From Somniosus microcephalus (Eukaryota), in NCBI GenBank assembly GCA_052327205.1, contig CM126214.1, positions 102,300,001 through 102,364,000 of the forward strand: 64,000 nt of DNA, read 5' to 3'. A model generated the notes under the pieces. It did no database searches, had not been told where the DNA came from, and worked only from the letters and a program-made list of their open reading frames with translations. Positions 17,451 through 64,000 of this stretch are shown one piece after another. Each line of letters starts with the position of its first letter. The first letter of the stretch is position 1. The position numbers and the translations under genes were made by a program.

Positions 17451-17454
17451 AGGT

Positions 17455-38545: not shown

Positions 38546-39477
38546 GCAATGTCTGCCTGCATCTCCAATTCACCCTTTTTTATACTTTTACCAGGTTCAG
38601 ACTACTGGCACAACACTGCAATAACTCCATTCTTGCAAGATCCATGTGTGCGCGTCTGTTCAAACATCATCAATGAACTTTAAACCAGTGTTTGCAAACT
38701 AGCATTTGCAATTTCATGCTTCTGGCTGAAGACCTCCTCAATGCTGGATGAAGGCATGTACAGGCTAGCAATATAAATATCGTATTGCTGGCCAGTCAGG
38801 CAGGCCGAGATACAGGCTCACTTACAGTTACTTCCATATGCAACTTAATTTATATTACAAGGATGCCTTTGGAGACATTACTGTAATATCAATGGTGTAT
38901 TAACTGATTATATCAAGATATGGCTTTGAGATCAACTTGAAAAAGATCAAAAACAGATCAAGAAGTAAAGCTGAATGAACGGAAGGGAGAAGGCTACACT
39001 ACAACAAATTCAAGTAATAATTCATCACGAGAAAAAGGGTTGCAGAAACTCAAATCAATAACCAAGGTTCTTCAGTGAACAAATGTAAAGAGTTCAGCTG
39101 AGGAAATAATACTGAATTATAGTAACATAGGAGCAGGAGCTGGCTGGTAGTCTAACACCTCCAACAGCTCGAGGAGAGACCCAACAGAAGCTACCGCTGT
39201 TGCGGACAGAGACATCCGTCAACATTCATCAACATCCGTGCATTTCATTCAGTCCGTTCCATCGCAGGGCCCTCACCTGTCACGGGTTGTATGTCTACTA
39301 TATCTATTTCAATCGCATGTAGTATCTGATTATACTTAAAGCGTAACTCGATAATAAAAAGCCTTACAACTCCCAAGACCCTTTGGGTAATCTGTGTGTG
39401 ACCTGTGATGCAAATCTGACATTGTGTACATTTAACAAGACGTCAGTCTATTGGAGCACAGCCTTCTAATTTCCTAC

Positions 39478-39556
39478 CTTGTGGCAAACTTCAGTCTTTA
39501 TCTCTTTCATAGCACGGTCCGAGAATACACAGCCACAGGCACGGAGGTAGCAAAAT
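39478..39556 (-). CDS. RTF2: RTF2 (replication termination factor 2) internal exon, equivalent to human exon 5: FCYLRACGCVFSDRAMKEIKTEVCHK
   Basis: Minus strand reads ttccttacAG|ATTTTGC...CACAAG|GTagga, 79 bp. The peptide matches the RTF2 RING-like segment (human FCFLRCCGCVFSERALKEIKAEVCHT, from memory). Absent from the ORF track. Confidence 0.9.
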
Positions 39557-39843
39557 CTGTAAGGAAATCAGTCAGGTCACAAATGATAATCACAGTAACA
39601 GTGGACTACTTCTCAAACCTTTTATAACTTGACCTAGATTGTAAATGCAGAGGTGAGGGAGGCATGTCAGTCAGGTATCTCTTTTATGGGAGGCAACCAT
39701 CAGCTGTTTCAATGGCAACAAAACTGAATTAAAGGACCTGCTACGTTCAGGTTTCAAATGTATCGCCTTCTCTTTCAATTGTTTCACAAAACTTCCTGTA
39801 AGCGAACCTTTCCCTTTATGATCCAAAAGCTGCATCTTCTACA

Positions 39844-40860
39844 TCTATATAAGACCTGTCTGTCTGTTCTCTATATGTTCGAAAGTTATAGAGCGTACCT
39901 ACACACGCGTCACGTCAAAAGAAAGCTTACGATTACGGACCGGTCACAGGCGTATTTACTTTTCCGTCAGACAAAAATCGTGCCCACGATATCCAAAAAA
40001 CGTTCAAAATTCCGCTCATTAAATGGGAAAAGTTCCGCTCATTTGCTCATTAGCATTGAGTGACGTGAAGGTTGACCAATCGTGCGGTCGAGCGACCTGA
40101 CAGTTGACCGACGGTTGACCAATTGCTGCGTCGCGGGGGCGGGTTCATTGTGCATGCGTGCGGGCGGGCCATCCTACAGTTGAGTGTTGAGTGACTTGAC
40201 GATTGACCAATCCTACGCTTCGGTGACCTTGCGGTCGACCAATCGGTGCGTGTGTGGGCGGGCCTTATCATTCTGAACCGAGGTGAGTGGCCGCCATCTT
40301 GATTCTTCACCATTTTTTTCCTCCACACTTTCTGTGTGTTAGGGAACTAAGGAAAATAACAATTTATTTGAGTTTTAAATTGTATTAAGCAACAGTAGGA
40401 AATGAAGTGATCCCCTGCCCTTCGCCCGGAGGCTCGCCTACCTTGACGGCCGTTTCGAGCGGCTGTGCCGGCGCCGGGCTAGACCGAGCAGCCCGGGAAG
40501 CCTGGGCCTTGAGTTGCGGGCAGTGCCGGGAGCCGCCGCGCACAAAACTTCCCCGCGGCGTCAACAGCCCCGCCCCAGAGCCCGACCCAAAGCCACCAGG
40601 TCACCGGCCGCGCCGGGAGCTGCCGCGCACAAAACCGCCCCACGGCGTCAACAGCCCTGCCCCAGAGCCCGACCCAAAGCCATCAGGACACCAGCCGCGG
40701 CGGGCCGTGCCAGGAGCTGCCGCGCACAAAACTTCCCCGCGACGTTAACAGCCCCACCCGAGAGCCCGACCCAAAGCCATCAGGTGAGCGGCCGCGGCGG
40801 CCCAGTCGCTCTCTCACACTCCCAACCACTCACACTCACACTCACACTCACAGTCTCTCT
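39844..40860 (+). mobile_element. Putative Helitron-like element 5' portion (CpG-rich, promoter-like, internal tandem repeats)
   Basis: Begins A|TCTATATAAG..CTGTCTGTCTGT with an abrupt rise in CpG. Three GC-rich repeats of about 87-100 bp at 40525-40800. No 3' hairpin/CTAG end visible. Confidence 0.35.
40056..40302 (+). promoter_or_regulatory. Promoter-like motif cluster
   Basis: Four GACCAAT boxes, three GGGCGG boxes, TGACGT, a donor AG|GTGAGT and a YY1-like GCCGCCATCTTG. Confidence 0.45.
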
Positions 40861-41380
40861 CTCTCTCTCTCGCTCCCAATCTCTCTCTCACGCTCCCAAT
40901 CTCTCTCTCTCTCGCTCTCTCCTTCCATCTCTCTCTCGCTCTCTCCTTCCATCTCTCTCTCGCTCTCTCCTTCCCTCTCTCTCTCGCTCTCTCCTTCCAT
41001 CTCTCTCTCGCTCTCTCCTTCCATCTCTCTCCTTCCATCTCTCTCTCGCTCTCTCCTTCCATCTCTCTCCTTCCATCTCTCTCTCGCTCTCTCCTTCCAT
41101 CTCTCTCCTTCCATCTCTCTCTCTCTCTCTCCTTCCATCTCTCTCTCGCTCTCTCCTTCCATCTCTCTCTCGCTCTCTCCTTCCATCTCTCTCTCGCTCT
41201 CTCCTTCCATCTCTCTCTCGCTCTCTCCTTCCATCTCTCTCTCCTTCCATCTCTCTCTCTCTCTCCTTCCATCTCTCTCTCTCTCTCCTTCCATCTCTCT
41301 CTCTCTCTCCTTCCATCTCTCTCTCTCTCTCCTTCCATCTCTCTCTCTCTCTCTCCTTCCATCTCTCTCTCTCTCCTTCC
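40812..41380. repeat. Compound (CT)n / CCTTCCAT polypyrimidine micro/minisatellite
   Basis: Units of about 24 bp (ctctctctcgctctctccttccat), preceded by (CACACT)n. Confidence 0.95.
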
Positions 41381-41609
41381 AATTCCAATTCCAATTCCAA
41401 TTAAAATGCTTTATTGGCATGAAAGTTTACAGAGAACCATATTGCCAAAGCTTACATAGCAAAAAGGTACAGTTTTCCAACATTCTGTAGGTGTCAATCG
41501 ATTTGACATTTGTTGGGTACATACAATATTACTTTTAAACAATATTAATTTTAAACAGTCTTTGTACTTCATTTGGTACGTTCAATATTAATTTTAAACA
41601 GTCTTAATT

Positions 41610-44600
41610 TTAAACAGTCCTCAGGTTGTGACATGTTGTTACATATTTGGCCCCAAGGTATGGTCTGTCTCCTTCTCCTAGGACTAATCTCAATTTTGAC
41701 AGATCATCCAATTCCTTGAAATCTGGGGTTGTTTGGCTTAGCTTGTTGAATAATATGTTTCTTGATGTGTTGAATTTTTCGCATTTTAGGAGGAAATGCA
41801 TTTCTGTTTCAACCTCGCCAGCCAGACATTGATCGCATATTCTATTCTCTCTAGGCTGCCAGGATTTCTTGTATCTGCCTTTTTCAATTTCCAGTTGGTG
41901 GTCGCTTAGTCTGTACCTGGTGAGGGTCTGTCTCTGTTTTGTGTCTCTGATGGTCGTGAGGTAGTCTGCCAGTTTATATTCTCTTTTTAGGGCCCGGTAA
42001 CATTCTAATCTGCTTTGGCTTTCGGTTATTTTGTTCCAATGTTCCAGGTAGGTTTCTTTGCATTTTTTAATGATTTGGTTCACTCGGATTGGTGTTTGGA
42101 CGGCTGTGTTGGTCTGGGGCTGGTCAGGGTCCGGCTGAGTACTTAGTTTCCGTAGCAGCTGACTCAGGGGACTCTTTTCTGGGTTTAGCTCTTGGGTCTG
42201 AAAGGCTTTGAAATGAAGGGTGTCTGGGGAGCTAGATTTGAGGTGATTTAGGAAGTTTAGTGCTCGTTTTTGGATGTTTATTATCAGTGGGTATCTGCCT
42301 AGTTCGGCTCTGCATGCATTTGTTGGCGTTTTCCTTTGGGTGCGAAGGATGCTTCGGCAGAATTCTGCATGTAGGGCTTCTATTGTATGTTTTTCCCATT
42401 TAGTGTAGCTTTGGTGATTTAGCGGGCCCCATACTTCACTACCGTACAGTGCAATGGGCAGGATTATGCTGTCAAATATTTTGAGCCAGATTTTGATTGG
42501 GATTTGGATGTTGTAGAATTTTCTTTTTATTGCATATAGGGCTCTTCGGGCTTTTTCTTTTAGTGCATTCACTGCTATGCTGAAGCTCCCTGATGCTGTA
42601 ATAGTTAGACCAAGGTAGGTGTAGCTCATAGTGTGTCCTATAGTGGTATCACTGAGGGTAAACTGGTATTTGTTTTCCTGACATCTGGGCCTTTTTTGAA
42701 AAATCATGATGTTGGTTTTCTTTAGATTTACTGTTAGAGCCCAATTTTGGCAGTATTTGTCGAGTAGGTCTAGTTGTTGCTGTAATCCCTGTTCTGTGGG
42801 AGACAGCAGAACCAGGTCGTCCGCATAGAACAGGGATTTCACTTCTCCATCTAGGAGACGGAGACCTGGTGACTCGCTTTGCTCCAGCATGTCTGCTAAT
42901 TCATTTATGTATATGTTGAACAGGGTCGGGCTCAAATTGCAGCCCTGCCGGACGCCTCTTCTCTGGGTGAAGAAATCGGTGCGTTTGTCTCCAATTTTGA
43001 CCCCGCATTTGTTTTTCAGATACATTGATTTAATAAGGTCATAGACTTTGCCCCCTATTCCACATTGAAGGAGTTTATAATAGAGCCCTTCGTGCCATAT
43101 AGAGTCAAAGGCTTTCTTGAAGTCGATGAAACAGGCGAATATTTTCCCATTTTTTGTTTGGTGTATATGTTTTTCAATGAGGGTGTGAAGGGTATAGATA
43201 TGGTCGGCGGTGCGGTGTTTTGGAAGAAAGCCTATTTGGTTTTTTCTGAGGATATTATGTTTGTTAAGAAAATCAAGTAATCTACTATTTAGAATACTGC
43301 AGAATAACTTCCCTAGACAACTGTTGACACAGATGCCGCGGTAGTTATTTGGGTCTGATTTGTTTCCGCTTTTATATATGGGGGAGATTAGTCCTTGGCA
43401 CCAGATATCGGGAAAACAGCCTGAACGTAATATGATGTTGAATAATTTGAGTACCGCACCCTGCATCTCCATATTGCTGAACTTGAGCATTTCATTTTTG
43501 ATGTTGTCTGGGCCACAGGCTTTCTTTAGGTGGAGAGATTTTGTTTTTGTGGCCATTTCTTTCCATGTGATTGGGGAGTCTAGAGGGTTTTGGTTGTCTT
43601 TGATTGTTGCTTCTAATGTGTGGAGTTTTTCTGTGACCTGATGTTGACTTGGGTTTGTTTCGTTTATTGGGATGTCTTTGTAGAGGTTTTCAAAATGTGT
43701 TCTCCAGATGTCGCCATCTTGGATTGGTAATGCTTGCAATTGTGTTGTACTCAGGTTATTCCACATTTCCCAGAATTGTTTTGGGTTGGTGGAGTTTTCA
43801 ATTTCTTCTAGTATTTTGTGGGTATAGTTTTGTGTTTTGTTCCTAATGGTGTGTTTATATCTTTTGAGGGTTTCATTGTATCTAGTACGTAGGTCCGGAT
43901 TGTTTGGTTGGCGATGCTTTTGGTTTGATATTTTTCTCAGGTCTTTTCTGGCATTTTTGCATTCGTGGTCAAACCATTTCTTATTTTTATTTTGTCTTTT
44001 GTGACTCTTCCTCTTCTGTTTCACGAGGTCGGCTTTTACAGCTGCCTCATGAAAGATCATATTTATATCCTCTATGGCCATGTTTACCCCATCTCTGGTG
44101 ATCTCATATAGATTTTCTTTAAATTTTGAAATTTTACTTGTGAGATCAGGTGAATTTAGTGCTGTGATGAATTTATCTCCACTGTCTGGGGCCCATCTGT
44201 ATGTCTGGTTTATTTTATGTAGCTTACTGGGTTCCTTTTTTGTGTCTGTAGTTTGGGCAGAAAGTTTAAGGTACACATTTATTTGGTTATGGTCTGAGAG
44301 GGGGGATTGCTGCCTGACAGTGAATGCGTTGATATCGCAGGGGTCCAGGTCAGTGATTGTATAATCCACCACACTAGACCCAAGAGTTGAGGAATATGTG
44401 AGTCTCCCTAAGGAGTCCCCTCTGAACCTACCGTTAACTATGTACAGGCCTAAGGCTCAGCAGAGTTGCACTACCTCCCTACCGCTTTTATTTATTTCAC
44501 AATCGAGGTTGTTTCGGTTTGCGATGGCTGGTGTGACATATAGAGGGGTCTGGCCAAACACATGGTTGTTGCCCTGTGGGTCTATGAAGTCAGGTTCACA

Positions 44601-45089
44601 TCCTGTCCTTGCATTTAGGTCCCCACATAGTAGCACCTTTCCTTGGGCCTGGAAATGGCTGATTTCCATGTGGAGAGTGTCAAATATCTCCTCTTCAAAA
44701 TATGGCGATTCTATTGGAGGTATGTAGATCGCACATAAGTAAACATCGTTTTTTTCTATTCCTATATTTTTATCTAATTTTAGCCATACGTGTGATTTTC
44801 CCTGTTTTATCGGTGAGATGTGTTTGTTCAGTTCTCCTTTATACCACACCAGGATTCCCCCGGAGGTTCTGCCCTTGCGTGTCTTAATGTTCTTTACTGA
44901 AGGCACAATAATTTCATGGTACATTGGGGGACAGTGGGTCGGCATGTCCTTTTGGCACCATGTTTCTGTTAACACAATTATATCAATGTCTTTTATAGCT
45001 TTTAGGAATTCAGGGTCTGTACTCTTCATCCCAAAAGTTGAGGAGCGGAGGCCCTGGATATTCCAGCAGCTTATGTGGAAAGAACGCAT
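41610..45089 (-). pseudogene. LINE ORF2 (APE endonuclease + reverse transcriptase + CCHC zinc motif) with one in-frame TGA at 44457-44459
   Basis: Motifs WNIQGL, LTETW, GDLNAR, SDH, PNNYRGI, DFKKAFDS, GVRQGCNLSPTLF, YADDL and CDQC..E..HF..C. The two track ORFs are in the same frame, joined by 84 stop-free nt (ALGLYIVNGRFRGDSLGRLTY). Confidence 0.9.
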
Positions 45090-45270
45090 TTATATAGTTC
45101 AATAAAACGAAATAAAATGGACCTATTTTGTGGGATGAGTGTGGAAACACTATTTTCTATAATGCTAAATGATGATTTAGTATAAATTTCATGAGGCATG
45201 CACATATATCTATCTAATAGTAGTAATAATACTGATAAGATAACAATAATGATAATGATAAATAACAATA

Positions 45271-46344
45271 TTAATAATTTCTCCGGCTTTCTATCAGGCT
45301 GTTCAGCATCGTCATGATCTTTCTCAGTTCTTGGTCTACAGTCTGTGGTCTAGAGGGGGGTCTTGGGTTCTGTTGTTGGTTTTGTAAAGGGGGGTGGGGG
45401 ACATTGGTGGTCCTGTTTGGGTTACGGCTCCCAATGGTAGAGGGGGTGGGAGGGCTGCGTCTTTTGGCAGTGTTTATGAGGTTTTTTGCAAAGACCCACA
45501 TCCGCTGTTTGAGTAGATGTATTTCGTCATAGAGGTCCCTTGTGTTGATGTTTGGATGATGGGCCAGGTAGACGTTGGGGAAGACAGAACATCTCGTGTC
45601 GATCTCCCTGTTGGTGTTGTGGATTATATAGGCTGGGGTGTCCTTTCTGGGCAGTAGTGTGGAGATCACGATCCGCGCCTCGGGGAATTCCTTGCTGGCC
45701 TTTTCCGCCATCCTGCTCACCGCCCTAGCAGTGCCTTCCCGTAGGGTGCGTAGGTCGTTTGTGCCTGTGTGGATCACAAGCCATTTGGGGCTTCCAAGGG
45801 ATTCTTTGTTCAGGATCTTCATTGCATGTTCTGTGTTGCTGCACCATTTTTTCAGGACTTGATGACCTGGGAACAGCCTCTGGGGGTCCAGAAACTTTCC
45901 GTTGGAGTCGGTCAGCAGGACCGCCTGAGGGGCTGGTTTTTCAGACTGGGTAGCAGTAGTCTGGGCAGGACTCGACTGATGGCTGGTTGTTGGCTGGGTT
46001 TCTGGGATATGTTGTGTGGCAGGAGCGGGGTTTGAGGCTTTCGGTGTGTCCTCGTGTGGGGGGGCATCTGACGGGTTCTGCGTCCCTGTGTGTGAGGACT
46101 GGGTAGCGGTAGTCTGGGCAGGACTCGACTGAGGGCTGGTTGTTGGCTGGGTTTCTGTGGTGAGCTGTGTGGCAGGAGCGGGGTTTGTGGCTTTCGGTGT
46201 GTCCTCGTGTGGGGTGGCATCCGACGGGTTCTGTGTCCTTGTGTGTGTTGTTTTTTGGACCTTAAGAGGTTTGTGTTGCCTGCTGAGCCTTTCTACGGCC
46301 TCCGTCATTTTGTTTAGTTGGGTATGGAGTTCTTGGATCTTATT
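45271..46344 (-). CDS. LINE ORF1: coiled coil + 2x51-aa Pro/Thr repeat + SGNH esterase domain (open into the gap)
   Basis: SGNH blocks LLTDSN, IHTGTND and DEIHL. 153-bp direct repeat at about 45944/46097. Frame stays open to 46344 (NKIQELHTQLNKM). Confidence 0.8.
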   Translation of the reverse strand, partial: NKIQELHTQLNKMTEAVERLSRQHKPLKVQKTTHTRTQNPSDATPHEDTPKATNPAPATQLTTETQPTTSPQSSPAQTTATQSSHTGTQNPSDAPPHEDTPKASNPAPATQHIPETQPTTSHQSSPAQTTATQSEKPAPQAVLLTDSNGKFLDPQRLFPGHQVLKKWCSNTEHAMKILNKESLGSPKWLVIHTGTNDLRTLREGTARAVSRMAEKASKEFPEARIVISTLLPRKDTPAYIIHNTNREIDTRCSVFPNVYLAHHPNINTRDLYDEIHLLKQRMWVFAKNLINTAKRRSPPTPSTIGSRNPNRTTNVPHPPLQNQQQNPRPPSRPQTVDQELRKIMTMLNSLIESRRNY

Positions 46345-46844
46345 NNNNNNNNNNNNNNNNNNNNNNNNNNNNNNNNNNNNNNNNNNNNNNNNNNNNNNNN
46401 NNNNNNNNNNNNNNNNNNNNNNNNNNNNNNNNNNNNNNNNNNNNNNNNNNNNNNNNNNNNNNNNNNNNNNNNNNNNNNNNNNNNNNNNNNNNNNNNNNNN
46501 NNNNNNNNNNNNNNNNNNNNNNNNNNNNNNNNNNNNNNNNNNNNNNNNNNNNNNNNNNNNNNNNNNNNNNNNNNNNNNNNNNNNNNNNNNNNNNNNNNNN
46601 NNNNNNNNNNNNNNNNNNNNNNNNNNNNNNNNNNNNNNNNNNNNNNNNNNNNNNNNNNNNNNNNNNNNNNNNNNNNNNNNNNNNNNNNNNNNNNNNNNNN
46701 NNNNNNNNNNNNNNNNNNNNNNNNNNNNNNNNNNNNNNNNNNNNNNNNNNNNNNNNNNNNNNNNNNNNNNNNNNNNNNNNNNNNNNNNNNNNNNNNNNNN
46801 NNNNNNNNNNNNNNNNNNNNNNNNNNNNNNNNNNNNNNNNNNNN
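46345..46844. other. Assembly gap (500 N)
   Basis: Run of N. Different, truncated repeats flank the two sides. Confidence 1.
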
Positions 46845-47211
46845 CTAAAACTAAACTTACCTTACTGTAAATTCTTTAAAATAATAAACCTGTGGAAAAA
46901 AAAATTCTAAATTGTACTAAAAGCCCACTTACCTGTAAAACTAAGTACTTACGTCTGGTTTTTCCACACGTAAAAACCGGAGGCCTTTCCACTCGGGCAA
47001 CTCTGGGGGGGGAAAAAAAAAAGGAGTTTCAACTGCGCATAGCGCTGCCTGTGCAGTCGCACGCGTTCTGCCTCTTAACCCCTTGGGTCAGAGGACAGGA
47101 AATGCCGGTTTTCAGCGCATGCACTGTGCATGCTGAAAACCGGCAATTCCTCCGGGCACACGCGTGAGTACCCCGTCCGTACTCACGCGTTGTGACAGGA
47201 ATTACTGGGCC
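46845..47211. mobile_element. Half MITE of the 48432 family, truncated by the gap
   Basis: Collinear with about 48837-49193; ends GAATTACTGGGCC. Confidence 0.7.
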
Positions 47212-48431
47212 GATAAGTGCACAGGAAAGTCATGTACAGATAAATTTGCTGAAATAGCACCGCTGTTTAAAAAGTAGCAATCAATGTTGCTGATGCTCAC
47301 TATGTAAGTGATACTGCTGTTAAGATGTTCTATGTGATTGCTGAAAACCAATTTCTGAGGGAGAATTTTTGAAGAACTGCATGCAGAAATATTGAGGTGG
47401 AAATTCAAGTGCGTGCCATAAGCTTGGGGCTAGAGGCTTATCTGAAATTGGGCCTCAGGCCTCATTTTAATAATAGGGATGAGCTGCGCTGCATGACGCA
47501 CGTCCATTGGCAGTTCGCCCGAAGTCGACGATCAAATTTGGGCCTGCTGCATTGGTAAATCCTGTGAGGTGGGGCAGAGGAAGATGCAGGATGACCGAGT
47601 GTGGTAAGGCCGAGTGCCCGCAGTGGTGCTGTGGAGCCCAGAGAAGCACTTTCCCTGCTCTTATTTCAGCTGCCACCCGGACGTCTGTTTAGGCCACAGT
47701 AGAAATGTAAAAACTAGTTGGAGCTTGTACAGTGCATGCTCCACCTCGTTTTTCACACATTTTGCAGAAGGGTCCTGAAAAAGGTGCAGGACCCTTCTTT
47801 GCATATTTAAATTGATCTAATGCTCATTTCAGTGAGAACCAATAGTCACCGACGCAGATTAGTTGCTGGCCATCATTCGCAGAAATTGGTATACACTGCA
47901 CCCATTTTACCCCCAATAAACCGGTGAAATACACATGAATTTCTAACCCCAGTGTGTCCAAATAACTTTTGCCGAACGTGGCCCACGCCAAGTACCAGGA
48001 TGCTGGAACAGGCCCACCATGGAAATTAAGTTTTACGCCCCTGTCCTAAAGGGACTGTGTTCCAAGAGTCCCCCTTGTTTGGATAATGGCCCCAGAGGGT
48101 AAACACAAAGAAATTAGGAAGATCATATCTGATGTTTGCAGTATTACTTTGCATCCTCAGACAGTCTCGTTCTGAAATCAAAGGGATACCAATTCAAGGA
48201 AAGTCTAGAAAGACAGAGGTAAAGAAAATTAGAGAAAACATTTTGGATCACTAGTTCAGAACATATGCTCTAAATAGGAACGGGCATCTTAGTTCTTCAC
48301 TTCCTTCATTATTCTGTGTCTGATCCATAGAATGCATGTACAATGTATTCATGATGTTAGAACATTCACTTGCAAAGTGCAGTGCCTCATAGCAATAGGA
48401 CATGATAAGTGCCTGCGATTCTCTACACACT

Positions 48432-49193
48432 GGCCCAGAACTTGGTGTCGGGGGCTTGCCGCGCGTGCAAGCCCCCGATCTGCACTCACCCTGCGCGCTG
48501 ACATCTGAAGCCCGGGCCTGCTTGCATTTCCTGTCACAGGCCCGGTTCAGATGTCAGCGCGCAGTGCTTACCTGATCCAGCGGCGTAGTTAGTGCGATGT
48601 GCCGGCTGGGATCAGGTGAGCACTGTACAACCAATCGGGAGGGGAAGGTTCATTCATGAGTTTGAGAGTAAGAACTGTCAAACTCATGAAAACTACGGGG
48701 GCCCAAAACACTATTTAAACTTTAAATAAAAATTTAAAAAACATCCCAATCATTAAATTAAGTATAACTAAGTAAAAAAAATAATTTAAACAATAATTTT
48801 TTTATTTTGAAAAAAATAAATTTTTAATAAAAAGGGTCTAAAACTAAACTTACCTTATTGTAGATTCTTTAAAATAATAAACCTGTGGAAAAAAAATTCT
48901 AAATTACACTAAAACACCACTTACCTGTAAAAATAAATACTTACGTGTGCTTTTTACAAGCGTAAAGACCGGAGGCCTTTACACATGCGCAAATCCCCCA
49001 AAACAGAGGAAGTCCAAGACGCACGCGCTGCCCCCTACAGCGCACGCGCTAGCCTCTTCACCTCTTGGGCTGGAGGAGAGGAAATGCCGGTTTTCAGCGC
49101 ATGCGCTGTGCATGCTGAAAACTGGCATTTCCTCCGGCCAGACGCGTGAGTACCCCTTCCGTACTCACGCGTTTGGGGAGGAATTACTGCCCC
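48432..49193. mobile_element. PIF/Harbinger-like MITE (inverted relative of 22002-22706)
   Basis: 3-bp TSD ACT/ACT. Left end matches the reverse complement of the 22706 end. Confidence 0.75.
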
Positions 49194-50157
49194 ACTGAGT
49201 TCCCAATCTCAGTTGCGTTGTAGTGGCAATATATTGATGAAATCTAGGTCTAGATCTTTTAGTCTTGAGGAATGAGGTAAAGTCGGGGGGAGACCTTCTC
49301 CCTCCCCACCCCACCCAAATTTCCTGCCCAAACACCTTGGCGAAGGCCTGGGTGCAGGTTGACCACCTGACCTCTTGGAATGGCGCATGGTGGGAAAATA
49401 TGAATGAAAGTAAAAAGGAAAAAATTCCACAAAGGCGAGCATCATCCCAAAACAAATCACTTTTATTTGAACATTAAGGAACAGAGGTAACGGACTAGAT
49501 TCCGAGAAATATTGTGTGGGACTCGTAAATCTAGTGAAACATAGAGTGAGCCTTTTCTTGTGGAACAGAACTAGATGTCAGATGAAGGCATGCAGTTTGT
49601 TGTGGAGCCATTCAGGTTAGAGTTCCAAGTATAATGATTTGAATGAACACTAGGAAGTAGCCAAATGCTTAAGTTCTCCATAGTCACTTTTTTGCAGTGG
49701 GGTTATTGTGAGAATTCCTCCACTGAGTTGTGAATTGTGGAAGTACTTTTTGCCAATTTCTGACTGGAAGTGGAATTTTAATTTATTTTGCTGAAAAGTT
49801 TACAATAACGTATTGAAGTGAGGTTCCAGAACTGTGATATAACCAAAGAGCTGTCTTTTTTACACAAAAGGTATTTAGATTTATAAAGAGATTGTGGCAT
49901 GGAATCGATTGTCAATCGTGCTCAATTTGAGCCATTCACAGCCGTGATGGATGGAATGAGATTAATGGTATCGAGCTATGTATTTTGTCCAGGCCAAAAT
50001 TTGGATTCTGGGAAAACACATTTTCTTGGGCATAATGGTCGGCAGTGCTGAGAGCCTGTTTAATGCTCTGAATTCTATTTGTGTTGCCTGCAGATTTGCC
50101 TTGGAATGGTCTTGGATCTTTGTTCTAACTTGACTAATGTCAAATTTGGCAAATTAT

Positions 50158-50344
50158 GCACTGCCTGAAAGGATGGTCGAGGCAGATACAAACGTGGCTT
50201 TCAAAAGGGAGTTGGATAAGTACCTGCAGGGCTACGGGGAAAGGGCAGGGGAGTGGGACTAGCTGAAGTGCTCTTGCAGAGAGCTAGCACGGGCTCGACA
50301 GGCTGAATGGCCTCCTTCTATGCTGTAACTATTCTATGATTCTA
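50158..50344 (+). mobile_element. CR1 3' fragment
   Basis: attctatgattcta tail and 3' stem-loop. Confidence 0.8.
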
Positions 50345-50367
50345 ACCTAGCTCGGTGTTGCATTAAA

Positions 50368-53300: not shown

Positions 53301-53397
53301 GCGGCTCACCACCACCTTCTCGAGGGCAATTAGGGATGAGCAATAAATGCTGGCCTTGCCAGCGACATCCACAACCCGTAACGAATTTTTAAAAAAA
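50368..53397 (+). mobile_element. Long CR1/Zenon-like LINE with a tRNA-derived 5' head (decayed EN + RT)
   Basis: Pol III A box 50376-50386 and B box 50438-50451. EN motif ILTESHL; RT motifs NYRPISLLS, DIKATFDRVWH and IYKAQVRSVMEY; A-rich tail. Confidence 0.8.
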
Positions 53398-54254
53398 CAT
53401 CAGATAATTTTTGTTTTCGTCCAAAGTAATCACCTGTTGTGTATTCGAAAAATAACTTTTGATAAAAATATGTATTGTCCTATTTTTTTGTTTTTATCTC
53501 GAGACATCATTCATGACCAGGAACTTCCTGCATCTTGAGCATAATGGGCAGTAACTTCGGTTCAATCTGGGAGTAGATCTGGAGTCTCTTGGACACAGAA
53601 AAACATGACACTACATGAGTATACAATGTACCTAACTCGGGCAGCCTGAAGTCAAGGCCCCCATTGCAATCGATGAAGTTGCTTCAGGGCACATGGTGTT
53701 TCTTTCCCTCAGTGAATACTCTGGAAGTGCACATGATGAGTCTCTTTTGAAGTTAAATTTATTTAAAGAATGCAAGCTACTTTTATTAATATATATTGTT
53801 GAATACAAATATGAACTACTTGTTAAAAGTTTTTCATGTAAATCTGTGGTGAACTTGCTTTATCCTAAATCGGTTTTGACTCCATGAAATATTACTTCTT
53901 CCATCGCAGATTTCTCCATAATTTCTTCACTGGCATGTGCAGCCCTTTGCTGTATTGCCCAAGTGGCTGATGGTTTGTGAGCCCAGTCAGTGAGTGTCAG
54001 CAGAAGGTACAGGTATTTTCACTGACCCCTCTGACAGCACCTCCTATAGTGCAGTGCCTCCTCAACACGGGACTGAATTAAATAGCAAAGCCTGAAAAAC
54101 AAGTACTGTAGTGAGATGAATGACCAGCTAATAACGTTTTGTTGGTGTTTGAAGGAGGAATGTTTGCTTGGATACTTGGAGAAGTCCATACCTCTCTTTG
54201 AATAGTGTAATGAGATCTTTAATGTCCACTTGAATAGGCAAATGGAGCCTCAAG

Positions 54255-54850
54255 AAGTAGGCTGATATTGGAGGATTGGAGCGTACTTACAAGGACATGG
54301 GGCTGGAGGAGATCATGGAAGTAGGGAAGAGCGAGGCCTTGGAAGACTTTGAAAGTGAAGATGAAAATCTTAGTTGATCCTGTTGGACACAAAGGCAGTG
54401 GCGGTTGACAAGAACACAGGCTGTGGCATTCTGCATGACTTGTGTTTTTTTTTAGTGGTGGATTGTGGAGGAGCTTTGGAGAAGTTCAGCCATGGATTAG
54501 AGTTCTGGCAGTAGAGTGGAACGCTAAGGGCAGAGGCAGGCAATGTCGCGAAAGTGAACAAAAGCATTTTTGGTAAATGATCAAATGTAGGGAAGGAAGC
54601 TGAGCTTGGGGTTGAGCCGTACACCAAAGTTTTGAGCTTATGGGCTTTGGTATCTGTGGAAGTCAATAATATTGCTTTGATTTTGCCATAGTGACGATAA
54701 CTATGGGATCAATAGAGGGAATGGTGAGTTACAGATGCATATGATCAGTATACATGTGAAAGCTGATACCTGTGTTCTGGGATAATATTGCCAAGTAAAT
54801 GAGGAGGAAGGGGTCCAAGATGGAATCTGCGATGAATGTGGTCATGGAAG
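54255..54850 (-). mobile_element. Decayed L2 fragment
   Basis: Similar to 17455-18200. Confidence 0.5.
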
Positions 54851-55429
54851 GAGAAACGATTAGGTGCATTATTTGCTACAATATTTTCATCATCTTCCTT
54901 ATGACACGGCACTGGAATTTTACAAAGTGGCACGATCTCTGAAAGTCTAAAGAGTCATTGATGTCATGTGGTCGTAAATGCTCCGTTTCTCAGCGCCACT
55001 ACCTATGCCAATAGGAAAGGATTCCACTCTTAGTGTGTGGCTGGCCTGCAACAGCCATAGTAATGGTGGTGCCTGCCCCTTTAAGCTGCTGTAGGCCTTT
55101 AAATCCTGCAGCAGCATGCTTTTCCCCTTCCAATCAGAGGCTGTTCTGATACATGGAGCTCGGCCGCAAATTCCAGAGGCCGACAATGAAAATTGCAGCA
55201 GGGTCAGCACAAACAGCGAGCGGGTGTGAATCGCACCCAACAAGAATATCCAGCCCCAATTGATCTCTACTACACACAAGTCTTTGTATTTCCCTTCTAA
55301 TTCAATTTTTAATCATTTAAGGTTCATTTTGCCTTCTAACAGGAAACTTCCAAGCTGCAATCCATCATCCTGACTACCAACTGTTTATAAAAATGCAAAA
55401 GGTCAGATTTGATTATTTCTAAGAAATGA

Positions 55430-55530
55430 ATGAAATAAAACAGAAAATTATAGAAATACACAGTAGGTCCATCAGCATCTCTGAAGATGAAAGACAGGCT
55501 AAATTCTTGTATGTAGACCCTTCGCCAGAA
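55430..55530 (-). mobile_element. Degraded Penelope pseudo-LTR
   Basis: Reverse-complement similarity to 59600-59705. Confidence 0.45.
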
Positions 55531-55551
55531 AAGAAACGTAGAGAATTACAA

Positions 55552-56825
55552 AAGGTAAATCATGCTTGACTAATCTACTGGAATTTTTTTGAGGCTGTAA
55601 CTGGTAGAATAGATAAGGGAGAACCAGTGGATGTGGTGTATTTGGACTTTCAGAAGGTTTTCGATAAGGTCCTGCATAAGAGACTAGCGTGCAAAGTTAA
55701 AGCACATGGGATTGGGGGTAAGGTACTGACTTGGATAGAAAACTGGTTGGCAGACAGGAAGCAAAGAGTTGGAATAAACGGATCTTTTTCCGAGTGGAAG
55801 GCAGTGACTAGTGGGGTACCGCAGGGATCGGTGCTAGGACCCCAGTTATTCACAATATATATTAATGATCTGGACGAGGGAACTAGATGTAATATCTCCA
55901 AATTTGCAGATGACACAAAGCTGGGTGGGCGTGTGTGCTGTGAGGAGGATGCAGAGAAACTCCAGTATGATTTGGAGAGGTTGGGCAATTGGGCAGATGC
56001 ATGACAGATGCAGTATAATGTGGATAAATGCGAGGTTATCCACTTTGGTGGCAAAAACAGGAAGGCAGATTATTATCTGAACGGCAATAGATTGGGAAAA
56101 GGGGAAGTGCAACGAGACCTGGGTGTCCTTGTGCACCAGTCGCTGAAGGTAAGCATGCAGGTGCAGCAGGCGGTTAAGAAGGCAAATGGTATGTTGGCCT
56201 TCATAGCGAGAGAGGATTCGAGTACAGGAGCAAGGATGTCTTGCTGCAGTTGTACAGGGCCTTGGTGAGACCACACCTTGAGTATTGTGTGCAGTTTTGG
56301 TCGCCCTATCTGAGGAAGGATGTTCTTGCCATGGAGGGAGTGCAGCGAAGATTCACCAGACTGATACCTGGGATGGCAGGAATGACATATGAAGAGAGAT
56401 TGGGTCGATTAGGCTTATATTCGCTCGAGGAAGAATGAGAGGGGATCTCATTGAAACCTATAAAATTCTAATAGGACTAAACAGACTAGATGCAGGAAGG
56501 CTGTTCCCGATGGCGGGGGAGTCCAGAACCAGGGGTCACAGTCTAAGGAAGGGGTAAGCCATTTAGGACTGAGATGAGGAGGAATTTCTTCACCTAGAGA
56601 GTGGTGAACCTGTGGAATTCTCTACCACAGAAGGCAGTTGAGGCCAATTCATTAAATATATTCAAGAAGGAGTTAGATATATTTCTTAAGGCTAAAGGGA
56701 TCAAGGGATGTGGGGAGAAAGCAGGGACAAGGTACTGAATTTGGATGATCAGCCATGATCTCATTAAATGGCAGAGCAGGCTCGACGGGCCGAATGGCCT
56801 ACTCCTATCTTCTATATTTCTATGA
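55552..56825 (+). mobile_element. CR1 LINE, 5'-truncated
   Basis: RT ORFs 55627-56438. Confidence 0.9.
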
Positions 56826-57153
56826 ATTGTTTAAAGTCCTTTTATGTTTTCCAAATGGCAGTAAGCAATTCTAGAACAAAACTAACCCTTAATTTACCAG
56901 TAAGTTTTCTGAAATTTAACTGGACCCCCTTCAAAAGTTTGCATTCTATTCCTTGCCCAAGAGACTGAATCCCCAAGATCTCCCTCAATACTTTTAATGG
57001 ACTTAAACTCAGCCATACTGAAGTGCACTTGCTCGCCCTGCTCCCAGCATTGGAAAATAAAATTATCTCTATGTCCATATCACCAGTGGCAGATTTTTTC
57101 CATGCTTGTATTAGAGAAAGGGTCTTGCTGCTCTGTAGGTAAAAGGTCCATCA

Positions 57154-58711
57154 ACCATCTTCAAGAAAGGTGACAAGTCCGATTGTGGTAATTACAGAGG
57201 AGTTTCCCTGCTGTCTGCCACAGGGAAATTCATCGCAAGAATCCTCCTCAATCGCCTTCTCCCAGTGGCCGAAGAGCTCCTCCCAGAGTCACAATGCGGA
57301 TTCCGCCCACTAATAGGCACAATGGACATGATCTTCACCGCAGGTCAATTACAAGAGAAATGCAGGGAACAGCACCAACCGCTGTACATGACCTTCTTTG
57401 ATCTCACAAAGGCCTTCGACACTGTCAACTGTGAGGGATTATGGAGTGTCCTCCTCAAATTCGGCTGCCCTCAAAAGTTTGTCACCATCCTCTGCCTGCT
57501 TCACAACGACATGCAAGTCGTGATCCTGACCAACAGTTCCACCACAGACCCAATTCACATACGAACCGGGGTCAAGCAAGGCTGTGTCATCGCACCAACG
57601 CTAATTTACAGAACAAACGGGAAACTGTTCAACCTCCGTCGCCTCCAGTCCAGATCCAAGGTCGTCCCATCCTCTCGTCAAATTACAGAATGCAGACGAC
57701 GCTTGCGTCTGCGCTCACTCGGAGGTCGAACTCCAAACCATCGTCAACACCTTCACCGAAGTGTACAAGAGCATGGGCCTTACACTAAACATCCGTAAGG
57801 CGAAGGTCTTCTACCAACCTGCCCCTGCCACACAGTACTGTCCCCCGATTATCAAAATTCACGACAAGGCCTTGGACAACGTGGACCGCTTTCCATACCT
57901 CGGGAGCCTCCTGTCAACAAGGGCAGACGTCAACGACGAAGTCCAACACCGCCTTCAATGTGCCAGTGCAGCCTTCGGTCGCCTGAGGAAGAGTGTTTGA
58001 AGACCAGGACCTCAAACCCGGCACTAAGCTCATGGTCTACAGAGCAGCAGTGATTCCCGCCCTGCTGTATGCCTCAGAGACATGAACCATGTACAGCAGG
58101 CACTTCAAAGCACTAGAGAGGTACCACCAATGCTGCCTCCGCAAGATACTGCAAATCCATTGGCAGGATAGGCGCACCAACGTCCGTGTTCTTGCTCAGG
58201 CCAACACCCCCAGCATCGAAGCTTTGACCACGCTCGATCAGCTCCGATGGACGGGTCACATTGTCCGCATGCCCGATACGAGACTCCCAAAACAAGCGCT
58301 CTACTCGGAGCTCCGGCTCGGCAAGAGAGCCCCAGGTGGGCAGAGGAAACACTTCAAGGACACCCTCAAAGCCTCCTTGAAAAAATGTAACATCCCCCTT
58401 GAAAAAGTGTAACATCCCCAACGGCACCTGGGAATCGCTGGCCCAAGACCACACAAAGTGGAGGAGAAGCATCTGGGAAGGTGCCGAACATCTCGAGAAT
58501 CTTCGCCAGGAGCAAGCGGAAACCAAGCGCAGGCAGCACAAGGAGCGCACGTCAACCCAAGCACCCCACCCACCCGCCCCTTCAACCACCGTCTGCCCCA
58601 CCTGTGACAGAGACTGTAGGTCCCGCATTGAACTCATCAGTCACCTGAGAACTCATTTTTAATGTGGAAGCAAGTCATCCTCGGTTCCGAGGGACTGCCT
58701 AAGAAGAAGGT
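57154..58711 (+). mobile_element. 5'-truncated RTE (BovB-like) LINE
   Basis: GNYRGVSLLS, LPESQCGFRP, DLTKAFDTV, GVKQGCV and C-terminal CPTC..C...H..TH. (AAG)n tail; 16-bp TSD GGTAAAAGGTCCATCA. Confidence 0.9.
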
Positions 58712-59002
58712 GGTAAAAGGTCCATCATAATTCTCAGACAGGAAGGTGTGTGGTCATGGTTTTGCATGAAACAGTTAGTAGGCCATCTGAGCAATGGCGT
58801 TTCATTCATACGATGAACTGAAAGTAAAATCATCAGCAGATCTGGACAACCCCCGATTCTGCATCAGCCCTCAAATTCAATGGAAAATTTGTGTTTTGGA
58901 TGTGGTACTTGGGGCAGAACATGAATTGATGCAGGACAAAAGCTGTATTACTACCTTTCACAGACTGCAGTGTTTCTGTTACAAAAAGTAGCAACTAAGT
59001 GA

Positions 59003-59428
59003 GGACATCGTTGTGTCAGCTGTAGCACACTCGCCTCTGAGTCAGAAGGTTGTGGGTTCAAGCCCCACAAAGAGACTTGAGCACAAAAATCTAGGCTGAC
59101 ACTCCAGTGCAGTACTGAGGGAGTGCCGTTTTTCGGATGAGACATTAAATCAAGGCCCTATCTGCTCTCTCAGGTGGACGTAAAAGATCCCATTGCACTA
59201 TTTTGGAGAAGAGCAGGGCCAATATTTACCCCTCAATCAACATCACTAAAAAACATTATCTGATCATTATCACATTGCTGTTTGAGGGAGCTTGCCGTGC
59301 ACAAATTAGCTGCTGCGTTTCACTACCTTACAACAGTGACTACACTTCAAAAGTACATCATTGGCTGTAAAGCGCTTTGGGACGTCCTGAGGTCATGAAA
59401 GGCGCTATAGAAATGCAAGTCTTTCTTT
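59003..59428 (+). mobile_element. SacSINE1-like DeuSINE, near full length
   Basis: tRNA-like head (GGTTCAAGCCCC B box), Deu-like core and L2-type tail aaatgcaagtctttcttt. Confidence 0.8.
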
Positions 59429-59569
59429 ACAATTTCAGTTAATAATCCCTGCCCCCATTTTTCATGCTGTATGATTTTGCCATTCCCATTTGCAACATTT
59501 TCACAGTATGTTCTTTCAATTTCTTCCCCCCATCCTACCCCCCCCCCCCCCCCCACTGTCTCTGCGCCT

Positions 59570-59705
59570 GCTTAATATCTGTTACATTTCCAGCTTTTTC
59601 CAGTTCTGATGAAGGGTCCCAGACCTGAAACATTAACTCTGTTTCTCTCTCCACGGATGCTACCTGGCCTGCTGAGTATTTCCAGCATTTTCTGTTGTTA
59701 TTTCT
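59570..59705 (+). mobile_element. Penelope pseudo-LTR fragment with hammerhead motif (59602-59639)
   Basis: gttCTGATGAAGGGTC-cca-GACCTGAAAcattaac, followed by the same tail as 8196-8319. Confidence 0.7.
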
Positions 59706-60014
59706 TTATAATTTGTAAGTTTATGTGGGAAGGAGCCTGTTTAATAACCACATCAGAAGCTGAACATAATACCAAAATCACAAACTGACACAGTGAAAAT
59801 AAACTTTTTAAACTTGGCTCAGCACAGGCAGCAATGTGAAGCTCATTGGGATTGACACTCCTCCTCCCTCAAATCTTAACTAAATGCAGTTCAAGTAACT
59901 TTATTTCATAATTATACCTACACAGCCTTTGTCAATGTGAAGCTGAAGCTGCATCATTTCCAATGGATGAAAGCCATAGAACAACTGGCCAGTAAAATTA
60001 GTTACAAACATACT

Positions 60015-60744
60015 GGCCCATATTTTCCGACCCCCACAGGTGAGTACAAGGTGTGTATACACCCGTAGAGGCCTCACAAGTGCCGGTTTCAGGTGTGCGA
60101 AGCGCATGTGCTGAAAACCAAGAATCCTTTTGACAGATCACCCGCCTACCCGGGAGATGGGCCTCTCCGGGCAGAGAGTTCTGCTTTCTTCACAACCTCC
60201 GCCCGCTGAAAACTTTTAAAAATCTTACGCCTGGTAAAAGCAGGCGTAAGGCCTGCTTTTACCAGCAAAAGAGTTTAAAAAAGTTTTTAAAAAAAATTTC
60301 ACTCATTTATAATTTTAAAATACTTTTTAAAAAAAGGTAAGTTTATTTTTAGCCCCGTAAAAAGCTTTAATTATTTTCTTCAAAAAATTAAATTTTTGTT
60401 TAAAATATTTAATTTAATGTAATTTTAAATACGTGATTTAAATAAAACTATTTAATGTTTTAGTGTGTTTTTTGAGTGATCCCCATTCATACTTTTGATG
60501 GGTCTACACTGAGAGACCTGTCAAAAGTGTGAGGGGGGATTCCCTTTGGTTCCCCATGGCCCACGTGATCCCAGGGACGCTTGCGAACCGCCTGCGCCCC
60601 TGGGATACCTGGGCCTCTGCGCGCGCACCAGGAGAGGCCAGGATCGGAAGTCTCGGGACCGACAGAGCCAGCAGGTAAGTTCGGAGATTTTTCCAGATCG
60701 GAGGCATCCGCACACATGAAGCCTCGAATCGGAAAATCCGGCCC
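60015..60744. mobile_element. PIF/Harbinger-like MITE, second subfamily
   Basis: TSD ACT/ACT; imperfect TIR GGCCCATATTTTCCGA / TCGGAAAATCCGGCCC. Confidence 0.75.
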
Positions 60745-60899
60745 ACTGTAATGGAAGCAGAGCTCAGGCATGTGTTGGACAATAAAATCTCCATTGTATC
60801 TTTTTCATGTAAAGCTTTAGATAGATCGAATATTGTGAATTTGAAAAAGAGACTTCAGTTTATAGTTATTTTGTCTGCTCTGACCAACCTCCCACTGCA

Positions 60900-61575
60900 C
60901 CCTCTAAAGGCACCTCACCTCAGACACCAAATGTGAGGAGCCTGTGGACTTTTTTGAGTCCGAGAATAGAGGGCATGCACTCTATTGCCTCTGCCTCCTC
61001 TGATCCCTCCCCCTCCCAACTGTCCCCTTTTTGGGTCTCTCTACCCTTATTGTATTCCATATTTTTTCCTTCATGTCTCCCCACTAACCTTATCTTGTAT
61101 ATGAAGCCCACCACTTGCTCCCTTGACCTATCTGAGCTTCTGACCACCAAGTTCCCCATCTCAGTTCCTGGTTACCCCAAGATCATGAATCTGTCCCTAT
61201 CATCTTACTTGGTCCCTACATCCTTCAAAACCACTGTCATTACCGCCCTTCTGAAAAAGCTTACTCTCAGCTGCTGCATTTTCGCAAACTAATGCCCAAT
61301 AGCCCACCTTTCCTTTCTCTAACGTCCTGGAGTGTGGTGTTGCCTCACAATTGCACACCCACCCTTCCTGTTTGAAGCTCTCCAATCAAGCTTCTGCCTC
61401 ATCCACAGCACTAAGACCTCACTGGTCAAAGTCAGCATCATCATCCTACATGACTGAGACCCCAACTAGCTGTCCTCCTTCACCTCTCTGTTGCTTTGAC
61501 ACTGTGGACTACTCCAACCTTTACAAACACTCTCCCTAACACCTCCACGGCACATCTATCTCCTGGTTCCACTAC
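60900..61575 (+). mobile_element. Decayed L2 RT fragment
   Basis: MKPTTCSLD, N.SLSS..VP.SFK...IT.LLKK and FDTVD. Confidence 0.6.
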
Positions 61576-61807
61576 TGAGTAGCTGGCTAAGATTGAGCTG
61601 CATATGTTCGCAGAGCAAGATTCAGTGGCATCCTACAGATCCTCATATAGTTACAAGGGGACACAATTCAATCACTATTAAAAACTGGAGATGCCCAGTT
61701 GCTTGGACTGGTTGCCATCAATGGTAGTAAGGAAACTGATTAAACCATAGACAGGCTGTCCCTTGAGCTTCATGGCACAGGCACAACTTACTGCTTTTAA
61801 CCAAGTA

Positions 61808-62121
61808 CAGGTAGACTACCCTTTATCCGGACTTCCGAAAACCGAAACCCTGTAAAAACCGAAGGTTTTTTCGTTCAGCGTAAGTCGTGCGCACGACCCC
61901 CCCGCCGGCCCCGACCCCCGCCGACCCCGACCGACTTACGCTGAGCGTCCGCGTAAGTCGTGCGCACGACCCCCCCGCCGACCCCCCCCCCCCCCCCGCC
62001 GGCCCCGACAACCGCCGACCCCCGCCTGGACCCCCGCCGACCCACCTTCCGAAATCCAAAATTCTCCGAAAACCGAAACTCGGCTGGTCCCGAGGTTTTC
62101 GGATAAAGGATAGTCTACCTG
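61808..62121. mobile_element. Same MITE family, short copy
   Basis: TA TSDs and the same TIRs and subterminal sequence; two palindrome units. Confidence 0.85.
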
Positions 62122-63288
62122 TACATGCAAAGTGATGCCTCAGATATGTGTCTGGCCTGCGGCTGGAAATCCCATGGATTTGCTTGAAGTTGCAAGCTCT
62201 GTCTGACATATCTGTAAGGCTAAACTAGGTAGTTTTGGTGCACTGGCCACTGAACAGTGCTGTATGCATGTGGGGCTGAACATTGCTCAGCTTCAAAGCA
62301 ATGAAAGCAAGCATAAGTTGTGCTAATCCTGCTTAAAATAAATTTTGCGTGACTGCAGGGGGTACAAAGCTCTGAAAAAGCACTTGTCTGACTATTTCCT
62401 GAGAGGTTAGCGTTTCCTCTCTGGCTGTCAGTGGTCCTAAATCAAACCCATTTACAGTTTCAAGCAAGTTCATAATTAATCCTTCATAATGACCACCCCC
62501 ACTCCCCCTTTATCCCAAGAATGCTGCCATCAAATTTGGCAATCACAGCCCATGTAGCATGGGAAAGGGCAGCTGGAACTGGAATTGAACAATGTGTGGA
62601 ACCCATGACCATGTTGTATGAAAGTTCATTCTCTGTGTGCTGCCTGCCTTGAAAGGTTGCAACCTTAGCTTTAGAAACTTGCCACATGTTCAAGCCAGTA
62701 ACTTTGAATGTACTTGTTCAGCTTTGTGTGAAATGTTTTGTTAAACCTCTCAATTTTTAAAAAGTTTTTCTTTGCCCCTCCAATTTTTTTTCTCCCATCC
62801 TCACCTGAAGACATTGATTCTTGCTGGGATGCGGTTTCCTGTGCGCTCAGTGCTCTTCCAGTCCATGGGCCAAGTGGTGTGAGCTACACTGCGAGCGGTG
62901 ATAAAACATAAGATTTTAGGGGCTGTACAGGCAAGCTTCATCCTGTCCTCGCCTGTTGTCGACGTTACTGCAGGGGAGCATAAGGATCAGGAAATCCTGC
63001 ATATTTTCCCTCTCCCCTCTCGCAACCTAAGGATGTTGAGACTGATTGTAATGCCTGTACTGGGATCAGCTAACTCGGCACCTACTGGGGATGACTGTGA
63101 TCTGTATGGTTCAGTTCTGCAGTGTAGTTTGAATTGATGAACGCAGCAGGTGGAAGAGCAGAACCTCACCGTTTTCATTGCCTGTGTAGTGTCATGTTGG
63201 CTTCAGGTCTTTGAGTTGTGAACTGCACTATATCACGTTGCTGCATATTATTTGCATGTTATGTATAACCACTTGTTTTTTTTTTCAG

Positions 63289-63343
63289 AAAGCAAAGAAA
63301 TCCAAAGCAACTGAGGCCGTTTCAAAGCCTGCACTTACCAAAG
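63289..63343 (+). CDS. RTF2: RTF2 internal exon, equivalent to human exon 7: KAKKSKATEAVSKPALTK
   Basis: Poly-T tract plus cAG acceptor (63287-88), G|GTact donor, 55 bp. Resembles human RTF2 KTKKPKAAESVSKPDVSE (from memory). Confidence 0.75.
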
Positions 63344-63871: not shown

Positions 63872-64000
63872 TGTAAGGGGTTTTCTCCGATACTGGTCCC
63901 CCGTTAGGATTTATAATAACAAAATACACACGGCACAGGGTTTTGGCTCAACCTTTGATTCGTTCGCTTATTGAACACACACAAACAATTACTTCCCCAG
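63872..64000. mobile_element. Possible LTR edge, truncated by the window end
   Basis: Starts TGTAAGGGG with a compositional shift. The other end is not visible. Confidence 0.3.

What the first reader, a model, noticed from the sequence alone, without database searches (positions are those of the whole stretch)
39478..63343. RTF2 exons on opposite strands across the scaffold gap
Seen: a 79-bp RTF2 exon on - (39478-39556) and a 55-bp RTF2-like exon on + (63289-63343), separated by 500 N. The gap edges (LINE ORF1 on the left, half a MITE on the right) do not continue each other. Known, from memory: these match human exons 5 and 7, which must be collinear. Inference: one contig is misoriented, which is the most likely explanation. 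Less likely are a true intragenic inversion or a duplicate copy. I could not find the exon 6 equivalent in the window.
Basis: partly seen in the sequence, partly recalled or inferred. Interest (0 to 1): 0.7.

Follow-up and report, generated by a model that had tools for sequence, protein, structure and literature searches.

The report
Scaffolding error scrambles shark RTF2 gene
Two exons of the DNA-replication gene RTF2 face opposite ways across a gap in this shark genome assembly, most likely because the assembly software ordered and oriented several pieces wrongly; the gene itself is probably intact and ordinary.

Summary
It is very likely an assembly artefact. The gene is spread over four gap-separated contigs, in the order exon 9(-) | exons 1-4(+) | exons 6,5(-) | exon 7(+). 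All 4 neighbouring-exon pairs inside a contig are collinear; all 3 pairs across a gap are flipped. A spliced contig from a public run joins exon 4 directly to exon 5. A decayed retrocopy has the exons in normal order. A satellite array links the start of the exon 1-4 contig to a contig 428 kb away in the opposite orientation. Relative to the flanks, the window's left contig is likely correct, while the right contig and the exon 1-4 contig are flipped and swapped. An apparent exon 4 frameshift is a base error. Not shown: reads across a gap, or the exon 6-7 joint in RNA, so a heterozygous inversion is not excluded (about 3%).

The parts
39478..39556 (-). RTF2 coding exon 5 (79 nt, AG..GT), on contig B
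   Evidence: its first 30 nt follow exon 4 in a spliced contig of run X10
63289..63343 (+). RTF2 coding exon 7 (55 nt, AG..GT), on contig C
   Evidence: sequence confirmed by a DNA-like contig of run X1
46345..46844 (.). 500-N scaffold gap between contig B (98,127 nt) and contig C (42,014 nt); likely a wrong join
   Evidence: 9 of 9 gaps seen in fetched DNA are exactly 500 N
1..46344 (.). Right part of contig B, which carries RTF2 exons 5 and 6 (minus) and GCNT7 (plus) in a coherent order; likely correctly oriented relative to the chromosome
46845..64000 (.). Left part of contig C, which carries exon 7; likely flipped and misplaced
27861..28812 (+). GCNT7 first coding exon, nested antisense in RTF2 intron 5
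   Evidence: (81-83% identity to shark GCNT7)
33156..33251 (+). GCNT7 second coding exon (96 nt)
35055..35251 (+). GCNT7 third coding exon to the stop codon
41610..46344 (-). Non-LTR retroelement (reverse transcriptase-type ORF2; ORF1 cut by the gap); family not tested
   Evidence: second copy, 90% alike, elsewhere in contig B
46845..47215 (+). Right ~370 nt of a ~780-nt interspersed repeat, cut by the gap

Best explanation
The two exons belong to one RTF2 gene whose exons lie on four gap-separated contigs, and the opposite strands most likely come from a scaffolding error, not from the animal's DNA. Shown: the assembled order is Z[exon 9, minus] - gap - A[exons 1-4, plus] - gap - B[exon 6, GCNT7, exon 5; RTF2 on minus] - gap - C[exon 7, plus]. 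Inferred mechanism: long-read contigs broke at GA/CT microsatellites, retroelements and a large satellite array. A proximity-based (probably Hi-C) scaffolder then joined the short contigs with fixed 500-N spacers in the right neighbourhood but in the wrong order and orientation. The inferred true order is Z, (exon 8, unassembled or elsewhere), reversed C, B, reversed A, satellite array, F, which puts all exons on the minus strand in order 9..1. The places of the two small contigs D and E are not resolved.
For: (1) Strand changes fall only at gaps: 4 of 4 neighbouring RTF2 exon pairs inside a contig are collinear, 3 of 3 pairs across gaps (4-5, 6-7, 7-9) are flipped; GCNT7's 2 of 2 pairs inside contig B are collinear. 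(2) A 573-nt contig of run X10 (depth 20.8, no substitutions against exon 4) runs from the end of exon 3 through exon 4 into the first 30 nt of exon 5, exactly at the splice sites. (3) A decayed processed copy on C9 has exons 1-7, a split exon 8, and exon 9 in normal order. (4) A 40-nt satellite variant occurs 70 times in the genome in three blocks only: start of contig A (10, minus), start of contig F (6, plus), and a 121-kb contig on C40 (54) whose two ends, at 500-N gaps, are both satellite. So A and F hold the only unique flanks found, which implies reversed A next to F. (5) A TFAP2 gene (probably TFAP2C) lies on minus 0.9 Mb to the left, as do exons 9, 6 and 5 (human gene order recalled). 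(6) Splice sites and phases fit one frame once the extra base in exon 4 is discounted; that base is absent from X1 (depth 28) and X10 (depth 20.8). (7) No second intact gene was found; skipping exons 5+6 (193 nt) would shift the frame; Rtf2 loss is embryonic lethal in mice (10.1101/2023.03.13.532415, figure-legend passage). (8) Misoriented short contigs are a documented Hi-C error, 4.3% of local orientations for 3D-DNA on human data (PMC7672694, passages; PMC6719893, passages).
Against: No read or contig spanning any gap was seen. In the corrected orientation the ends at the window's gap and at the A|B gap show no sequence overlap or element continuity. The exon 6-7 joint, the one that crosses the window's gap, rests on the retrocopy and on homologous proteins, not on a transcript of this species. 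The spliced contig is a single record; its run is not on record as RNA, and it shares a sample with X1, which may be the sample assembled. The A-F satellite overlap is not unique at base level (92.7% over a forced overlap). Heterozygous inversions can themselves break assemblies at their breakpoints. CSTF1 and a CASS4-like gene lie 9 Mb away on plus, so some rearrangement near this locus, real or artefactual, is unexplained. Exon 8 was not found.
Confidence: 0.95

Rival explanations
1. The sequenced animal carries a real inversion allele inside RTF2 (two nested reversals) in heterozygous state; the assembler broke at the breakpoints and the scaffold shows the rearranged allele, while the normal allele makes the transcript.
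For: Breakpoints at gaps and a normal transcript are both compatible with it. Repeats at the gap edges could seed inversions. Heterozygous Rtf2 mice are viable (legend passage).
Against: It needs two reversals with four breakpoints, all hidden in fixed-length gaps. One breakpoint would sit in a satellite whose middle piece is itself parked on another chromosome between gaps, which shows scaffolding error at this very locus. No inverted repeat pair links the two ends of contig B. Contig ends here are poorly polished (13 one-base gaps in 1147 nt), as expected from low coverage.
Confidence: 0.03
2. The inversion is fixed and RTF2 is either dead or assembled by trans-splicing from exons on opposite strands.
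For: The assembly as it stands; an apparent frameshift in exon 4 and a missing exon 8.
Against: The frameshift is absent from both runs that cover it. All eight exons found keep their splice sites and high identity to relatives. Exon 4 is joined to exon 5 in a spliced contig. The gene is essential in mice.
Confidence: 0.01
3. Exon 7 and exon 5 belong to two different RTF2 copies (duplicate gene or uncollapsed haplotype).
For: RTF2-derived copies exist elsewhere in the genome (C9, C2).
Against: Each exon occurs once on C13; the C9 copy is intronless and decayed and the C2 piece repeats its 3' end. Among contigs Z-G, matches of at least 96% identity are at most 2.9 kb and multi-copy, not haplotig-like.
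Confidence: 0.01

Closest known systems
Orientation and order errors of short contigs in Hi-C scaffolds (3D-DNA, SALSA2; PMC7672694 and PMC6719893, passages seen)
   Same: Short contigs (18-245 kb) between fixed-length gaps, in the right neighbourhood but inverted or out of order, breaking a gene model; a small flip nested inside a larger inversion resembles the two error types drawn in Fig. 1 of PMC7672694 (legend seen).
   Different: Nothing in kind. The scaffolder used for this assembly is not known; that 500-N spacers are typical of these tools is recalled.
Vertebrate RTF2 (RTFDC1; Pfam Rtf2 PF04641)
   Same: Exons cover residues 1-215 and 245-309 of Heptranchias RTF2 at about 78-92% identity, in frame.
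   Different: Exon 8 is missing from the fetched assembly; order and strands are scrambled at gaps.
RTF2-GCNT7 locus
   Same: GCNT7 lies antisense inside RTF2 intron 5 on contig B. The two genes are listed in one human locus with CASS4 and CSTF1 (PMC5446752, one table passage); the nested antisense layout in human is recalled.
   Different: CSTF1 and the CASS4-like gene are 9 Mb away in this assembly.

Membership tests
Scaffolding misorientation artefact | Strand or order changes coincide with gaps and never fall inside contigs | tested here: met
   3 of 3 cross-gap exon pairs flipped, 4 of 4 in-contig pairs collinear
Scaffolding misorientation artefact | Gaps of fixed nominal length with no sequence support for the join | tested here: met
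   9 of 9 gaps are 500 N; no continuity at the window's gap
Scaffolding misorientation artefact | Transcript follows the corrected order | tested here: met
   Exon 3-4-5 joined in one contig of X10; met for the 4-5 joint only, the 6-7 joint was not seen
Scaffolding misorientation artefact | Contig ends overlap or continue each other in the corrected orientation | tested here: inconclusive
   Satellite links A and F; no continuity for the ends of B or C
Scaffolding misorientation artefact | Long reads or Hi-C contacts favour the corrected orientation | not testable with these tools
   Only short contigs of public runs were available
Real intragenic inversion | Contiguous sequence across a breakpoint in the rearranged orientation | tested here: not met
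   Every breakpoint lies in an N gap
Real intragenic inversion | Decay or loss of splicing of the displaced exons (if fixed) | tested here: not met
   Exons intact and conserved; exon 5 spliced to exon 4
RTF2 (PF04641) | Match to the family and collinear coverage of orthologous proteins | tested here: met
MITE (repeat at 46845) | Terminal inverted repeats and target-site duplication | tested here: inconclusive
   One full copy shows internal hairpins, no clear terminal repeats; target sites not examined

The most novel reading that the evidence does not exclude
A wild shark carries a real, heterozygous nested inversion of about 430 kb that scrambles an essential replication gene, with breakpoints in microsatellite and satellite DNA; at the far extreme the inversion is fixed and the exons are joined by trans-splicing.
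Probability: 0.04. Interest if true: 0.6.

Novelty: not a real feature. Interest (0 to 1): 0.05.

Why it matters
As biology it does not matter: it is an ordinary RTF2-GCNT7 locus. As quality control it does. This stretch of the assembly has contigs out of order, a satellite piece probably placed on another chromosome, and about 1% one-base errors near a contig end. Annotation would call RTF2 fragmented or pseudogenised, and synteny studies would report false inversions. Other findings in this genome that rest on orientation across 500-N gaps, or on frameshifts near contig ends, need the same caution.

Tried and rejected
Run search: no RNA holder listed. Laying on exon 7: of 4 runs, X10 and X11 gave no record, X22 only a 35-nt repeat piece, X1 one contig over the whole 901 nt; this blank says nothing about splicing of exon 7. 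Laying on exon 4: X17 and X20 gave no record (2 of 4 runs). Overlap tests of the gap edges in flipped orientation found nothing. The missing ~410 nt of the 46845 repeat and the upstream part of the cut retroelement were not at any of 14 contig ends, 2.5 kb each. Exon 8 was not found by motif scan, tblastn, a profile of 9 proteins (which did find the retrocopy, E 1e-10), or DNA probes in 644 kb, nor in 200 kb beyond the CASS4-like gene; a genome-wide DNA probe found only the retrocopy itself. No gap and no satellite in 200 kb downstream of the CASS4-like gene. A DNA search of the genome with the satellite was not scored; a tight pattern was. A unique base-level overlap between the A and F arrays could not be resolved. 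ORF listing in the flanking contigs gave mostly transposon frames and was not scanned further. Paper search for RTF2 + shark + inversion: 0 papers. Earlier findings: 0 near this place; the 8 shown of 23 genome-wide were unrelated. Rejected: RTF2 pseudogenisation, duplicate gene, haplotig.

Full report
Observation. The window is G000:C13:102300001-102364000 of a 6.45-Gb genome; the closest protein hits are from sharks and rays. They match residues 134-159 and 198-215 of 9 of 9 shark and ray RTF2 proteins tested, at 22-26 of 26 and 12-15 of 18 identities. The short exon 7 is not a chance match: a retrocopy probe hits it at E 4e-11, and the next best hit in 644 kb is at 0.065.

Anatomy of the locus. 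I fetched 644 kb (C13:101.92-102.564 Mb). It holds seven gaps, all 500 N, which define contigs Z, A (244,565 nt), B (98,127), C (42,014), D (22,513), E (18,577), F (98,311) and G. RTF2 exons map as follows. All 4 neighbouring-exon pairs inside one contig are collinear and all 3 pairs across gaps are flipped. Contig B is internally coherent: between exons 5 and 6 it carries the three coding exons of GCNT7 on the opposite strand, with an intact frame (window 27861-28812, 33156-33251, 35055-35251). Exon 8 was not found in the fetched DNA, although the profile used finds it in the retrocopy.

Transcript evidence. In run X10 a single 573-nt contig (depth 20.8) aligns to exon 4 without substitutions. 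Its loose letters on the left are the end of exon 3, and on the right the first 30 shown are identical to the start of exon 5, which the assembly has on the other strand 95 kb away. The 109 loose letters would fit exon 5 plus 30 nt of exon 6, but only 30 are shown. The run is not on record as RNA; I infer that from the exact splice joints. It cannot be the C9 retrocopy, which is only 77-91% alike. X10 and X1 come from one sample, possibly the assembled one, and 2 of the 4 runs laid gave nothing. The second laying, on exon 7, gave no spliced contig, so the 6-7 joint is not shown in RNA. It rests on the processed copy at C9:64897067-64900900, which has exons 1-7, an exon 8 split by a 2.5-kb insertion, and exon 9 in normal order, and on the homologous proteins.

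DNA evidence for the true order. Contig A begins with 26.8 kb of a satellite and contig F begins with 17.3 kb of the same satellite on the other strand; each points into a gap. A 40-nt variant of it occurs 70 times in the genome: 10 in A, 6 in F and 54 on C40. The C40 block is a 121-kb contig that is satellite at both ends and bounded by 500-N gaps (only its ends were read). So A and F hold the only unique flanks found for this array, which puts reversed A next to F, probably with the C40 piece between them. A unique overlap could not be fixed inside the array. A TFAP2 gene 0.9 Mb to the left is on minus; if it is TFAP2C and the human order holds (both recalled or inferred), RTF2 belongs on minus, as in Z and B. 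The simplest true order is Z, reversed C, B, reversed A, F. From it the assembly is two reversals away: the block A-C (up to A-E, 428 kb) inverted, and B flipped back inside it. In the window, then, the right contig is likely the wrong one.

Base quality. Exon 4 carries one extra base that shifts the frame. Both X1 (depth 28) and X10 lack it, and X1 shows 13 one-base gaps in 1147 nt of this region, 3 kb from the end of contig A, against 1 gap in 901 nt around exon 7. With that base discounted, exon phases 1-7 fit one frame. Several contig ends are GA- or CT-rich microsatellites, where long-read coverage is known to drop (recalled).

Results against this reading. No read spans a gap. CSTF1 and a CASS4-like gene, listed in one human locus with RTF2 and GCNT7 (PMC5446752, table passage), lie 9 Mb away on plus, with no gap or satellite in the 200 kb read beyond them; this is unexplained. 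A heterozygous inversion would also give gaps at breakpoints and a normal transcript, so it cannot be fully excluded; it would need four breakpoints, all in gaps.

Comparison and verdict. Misoriented and misordered short contigs are a known product of Hi-C scaffolding: 4.3% local orientation errors for 3D-DNA on human data, worse for short contigs, hindering gene prediction (PMC7672694, passages; PMC6719893, passages). The scaffolder used here is not known. Rtf2 loss is embryonic lethal in mice (10.1101/2023.03.13.532415, figure-legend passage), and dropping exons 5 and 6 (193 nt) would shift the frame, so a fixed disruption is unlikely. A search for RTF2 + shark + inversion found 0 papers. 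Verdict: assembly artefact, confidence 0.95; not a real feature; interest 0.05. No supplements were consulted.

Noticed in passing
window 27861-35251 (+): Intact three-exon GCNT7 nested antisense in RTF2 intron 5 (83.6 kb); GCNT7 and RTF2 hits share the same longest-contig length in six shark and ray species, which suggests one chromosome.
   Followed up: yes
L050:5067-8930 (G000:C9:64897067-64900900, +): Decayed processed RTF2 retrocopy with stops and frameshifts, split in exon 8 by a ~2.5-kb insertion flanked by a 7-nt direct repeat.
   Followed up: partly
L070:3296-4337 (G000:C2:86495296-86496337, -): Second RTF2 3' fragment that shares the sequence beyond the poly(A) with the C9 retrocopy (82% over 1.1 kb), so one is a DNA-level copy of the other or both ride in a mobile element.
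   Followed up: partly
L011:4437 (G000:C13:102244437): One-base insertion error in RTF2 exon 4; about 1% one-base errors near this contig end.
   Followed up: yes
L093-L095 (G000:C40:4703297-4824578): 121-kb gap-bounded contig, satellite at both ends, of the same ~39-nt satellite as at C13:102.00 and 102.43 Mb; probably misplaced from C13.
   Followed up: partly
G000:C13:101.92-102.564 Mb: RTF2 exon 8 is absent from the fetched assembly; exon phases allow it to be skipped in frame and one skate isoform (P0006) lacks it, so a gap is likelier than, but not distinguished from, real loss.
   Followed up: partly
G000:C13:111016615-111356042 (L072 holds the 3' part): CSTF1 and a CASS4-like gene lie on plus 9 Mb from RTF2, although they are its neighbours in human; real lineage inversion or a larger scaffolding error.
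   Followed up: partly
G000:C32:39574603-39686864 (-): Five Branch-family (GCNT-like) first-exon hits with identical scores at about 24.6-kb spacing: a very young tandem array or an assembly duplication.
   Followed up: no
G000:C36:35.5-66.5 Mb: Many GCNT-like (PF02485) genes and broken copies on one chromosome, an apparent family expansion.
   Followed up: no
window 41610-46344 (-), with similar pieces in contigs A, B and D: A young non-LTR retroelement family (3' parts 96-99% alike between copies) with a GA-rich and pentamer-repeat tail sits at or near several contig ends and may cause the breaks.
   Followed up: no
window 24950-25123: Near-perfect 174-nt palindrome (87-nt arms, 99% complementary, no spacer).
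   Followed up: no
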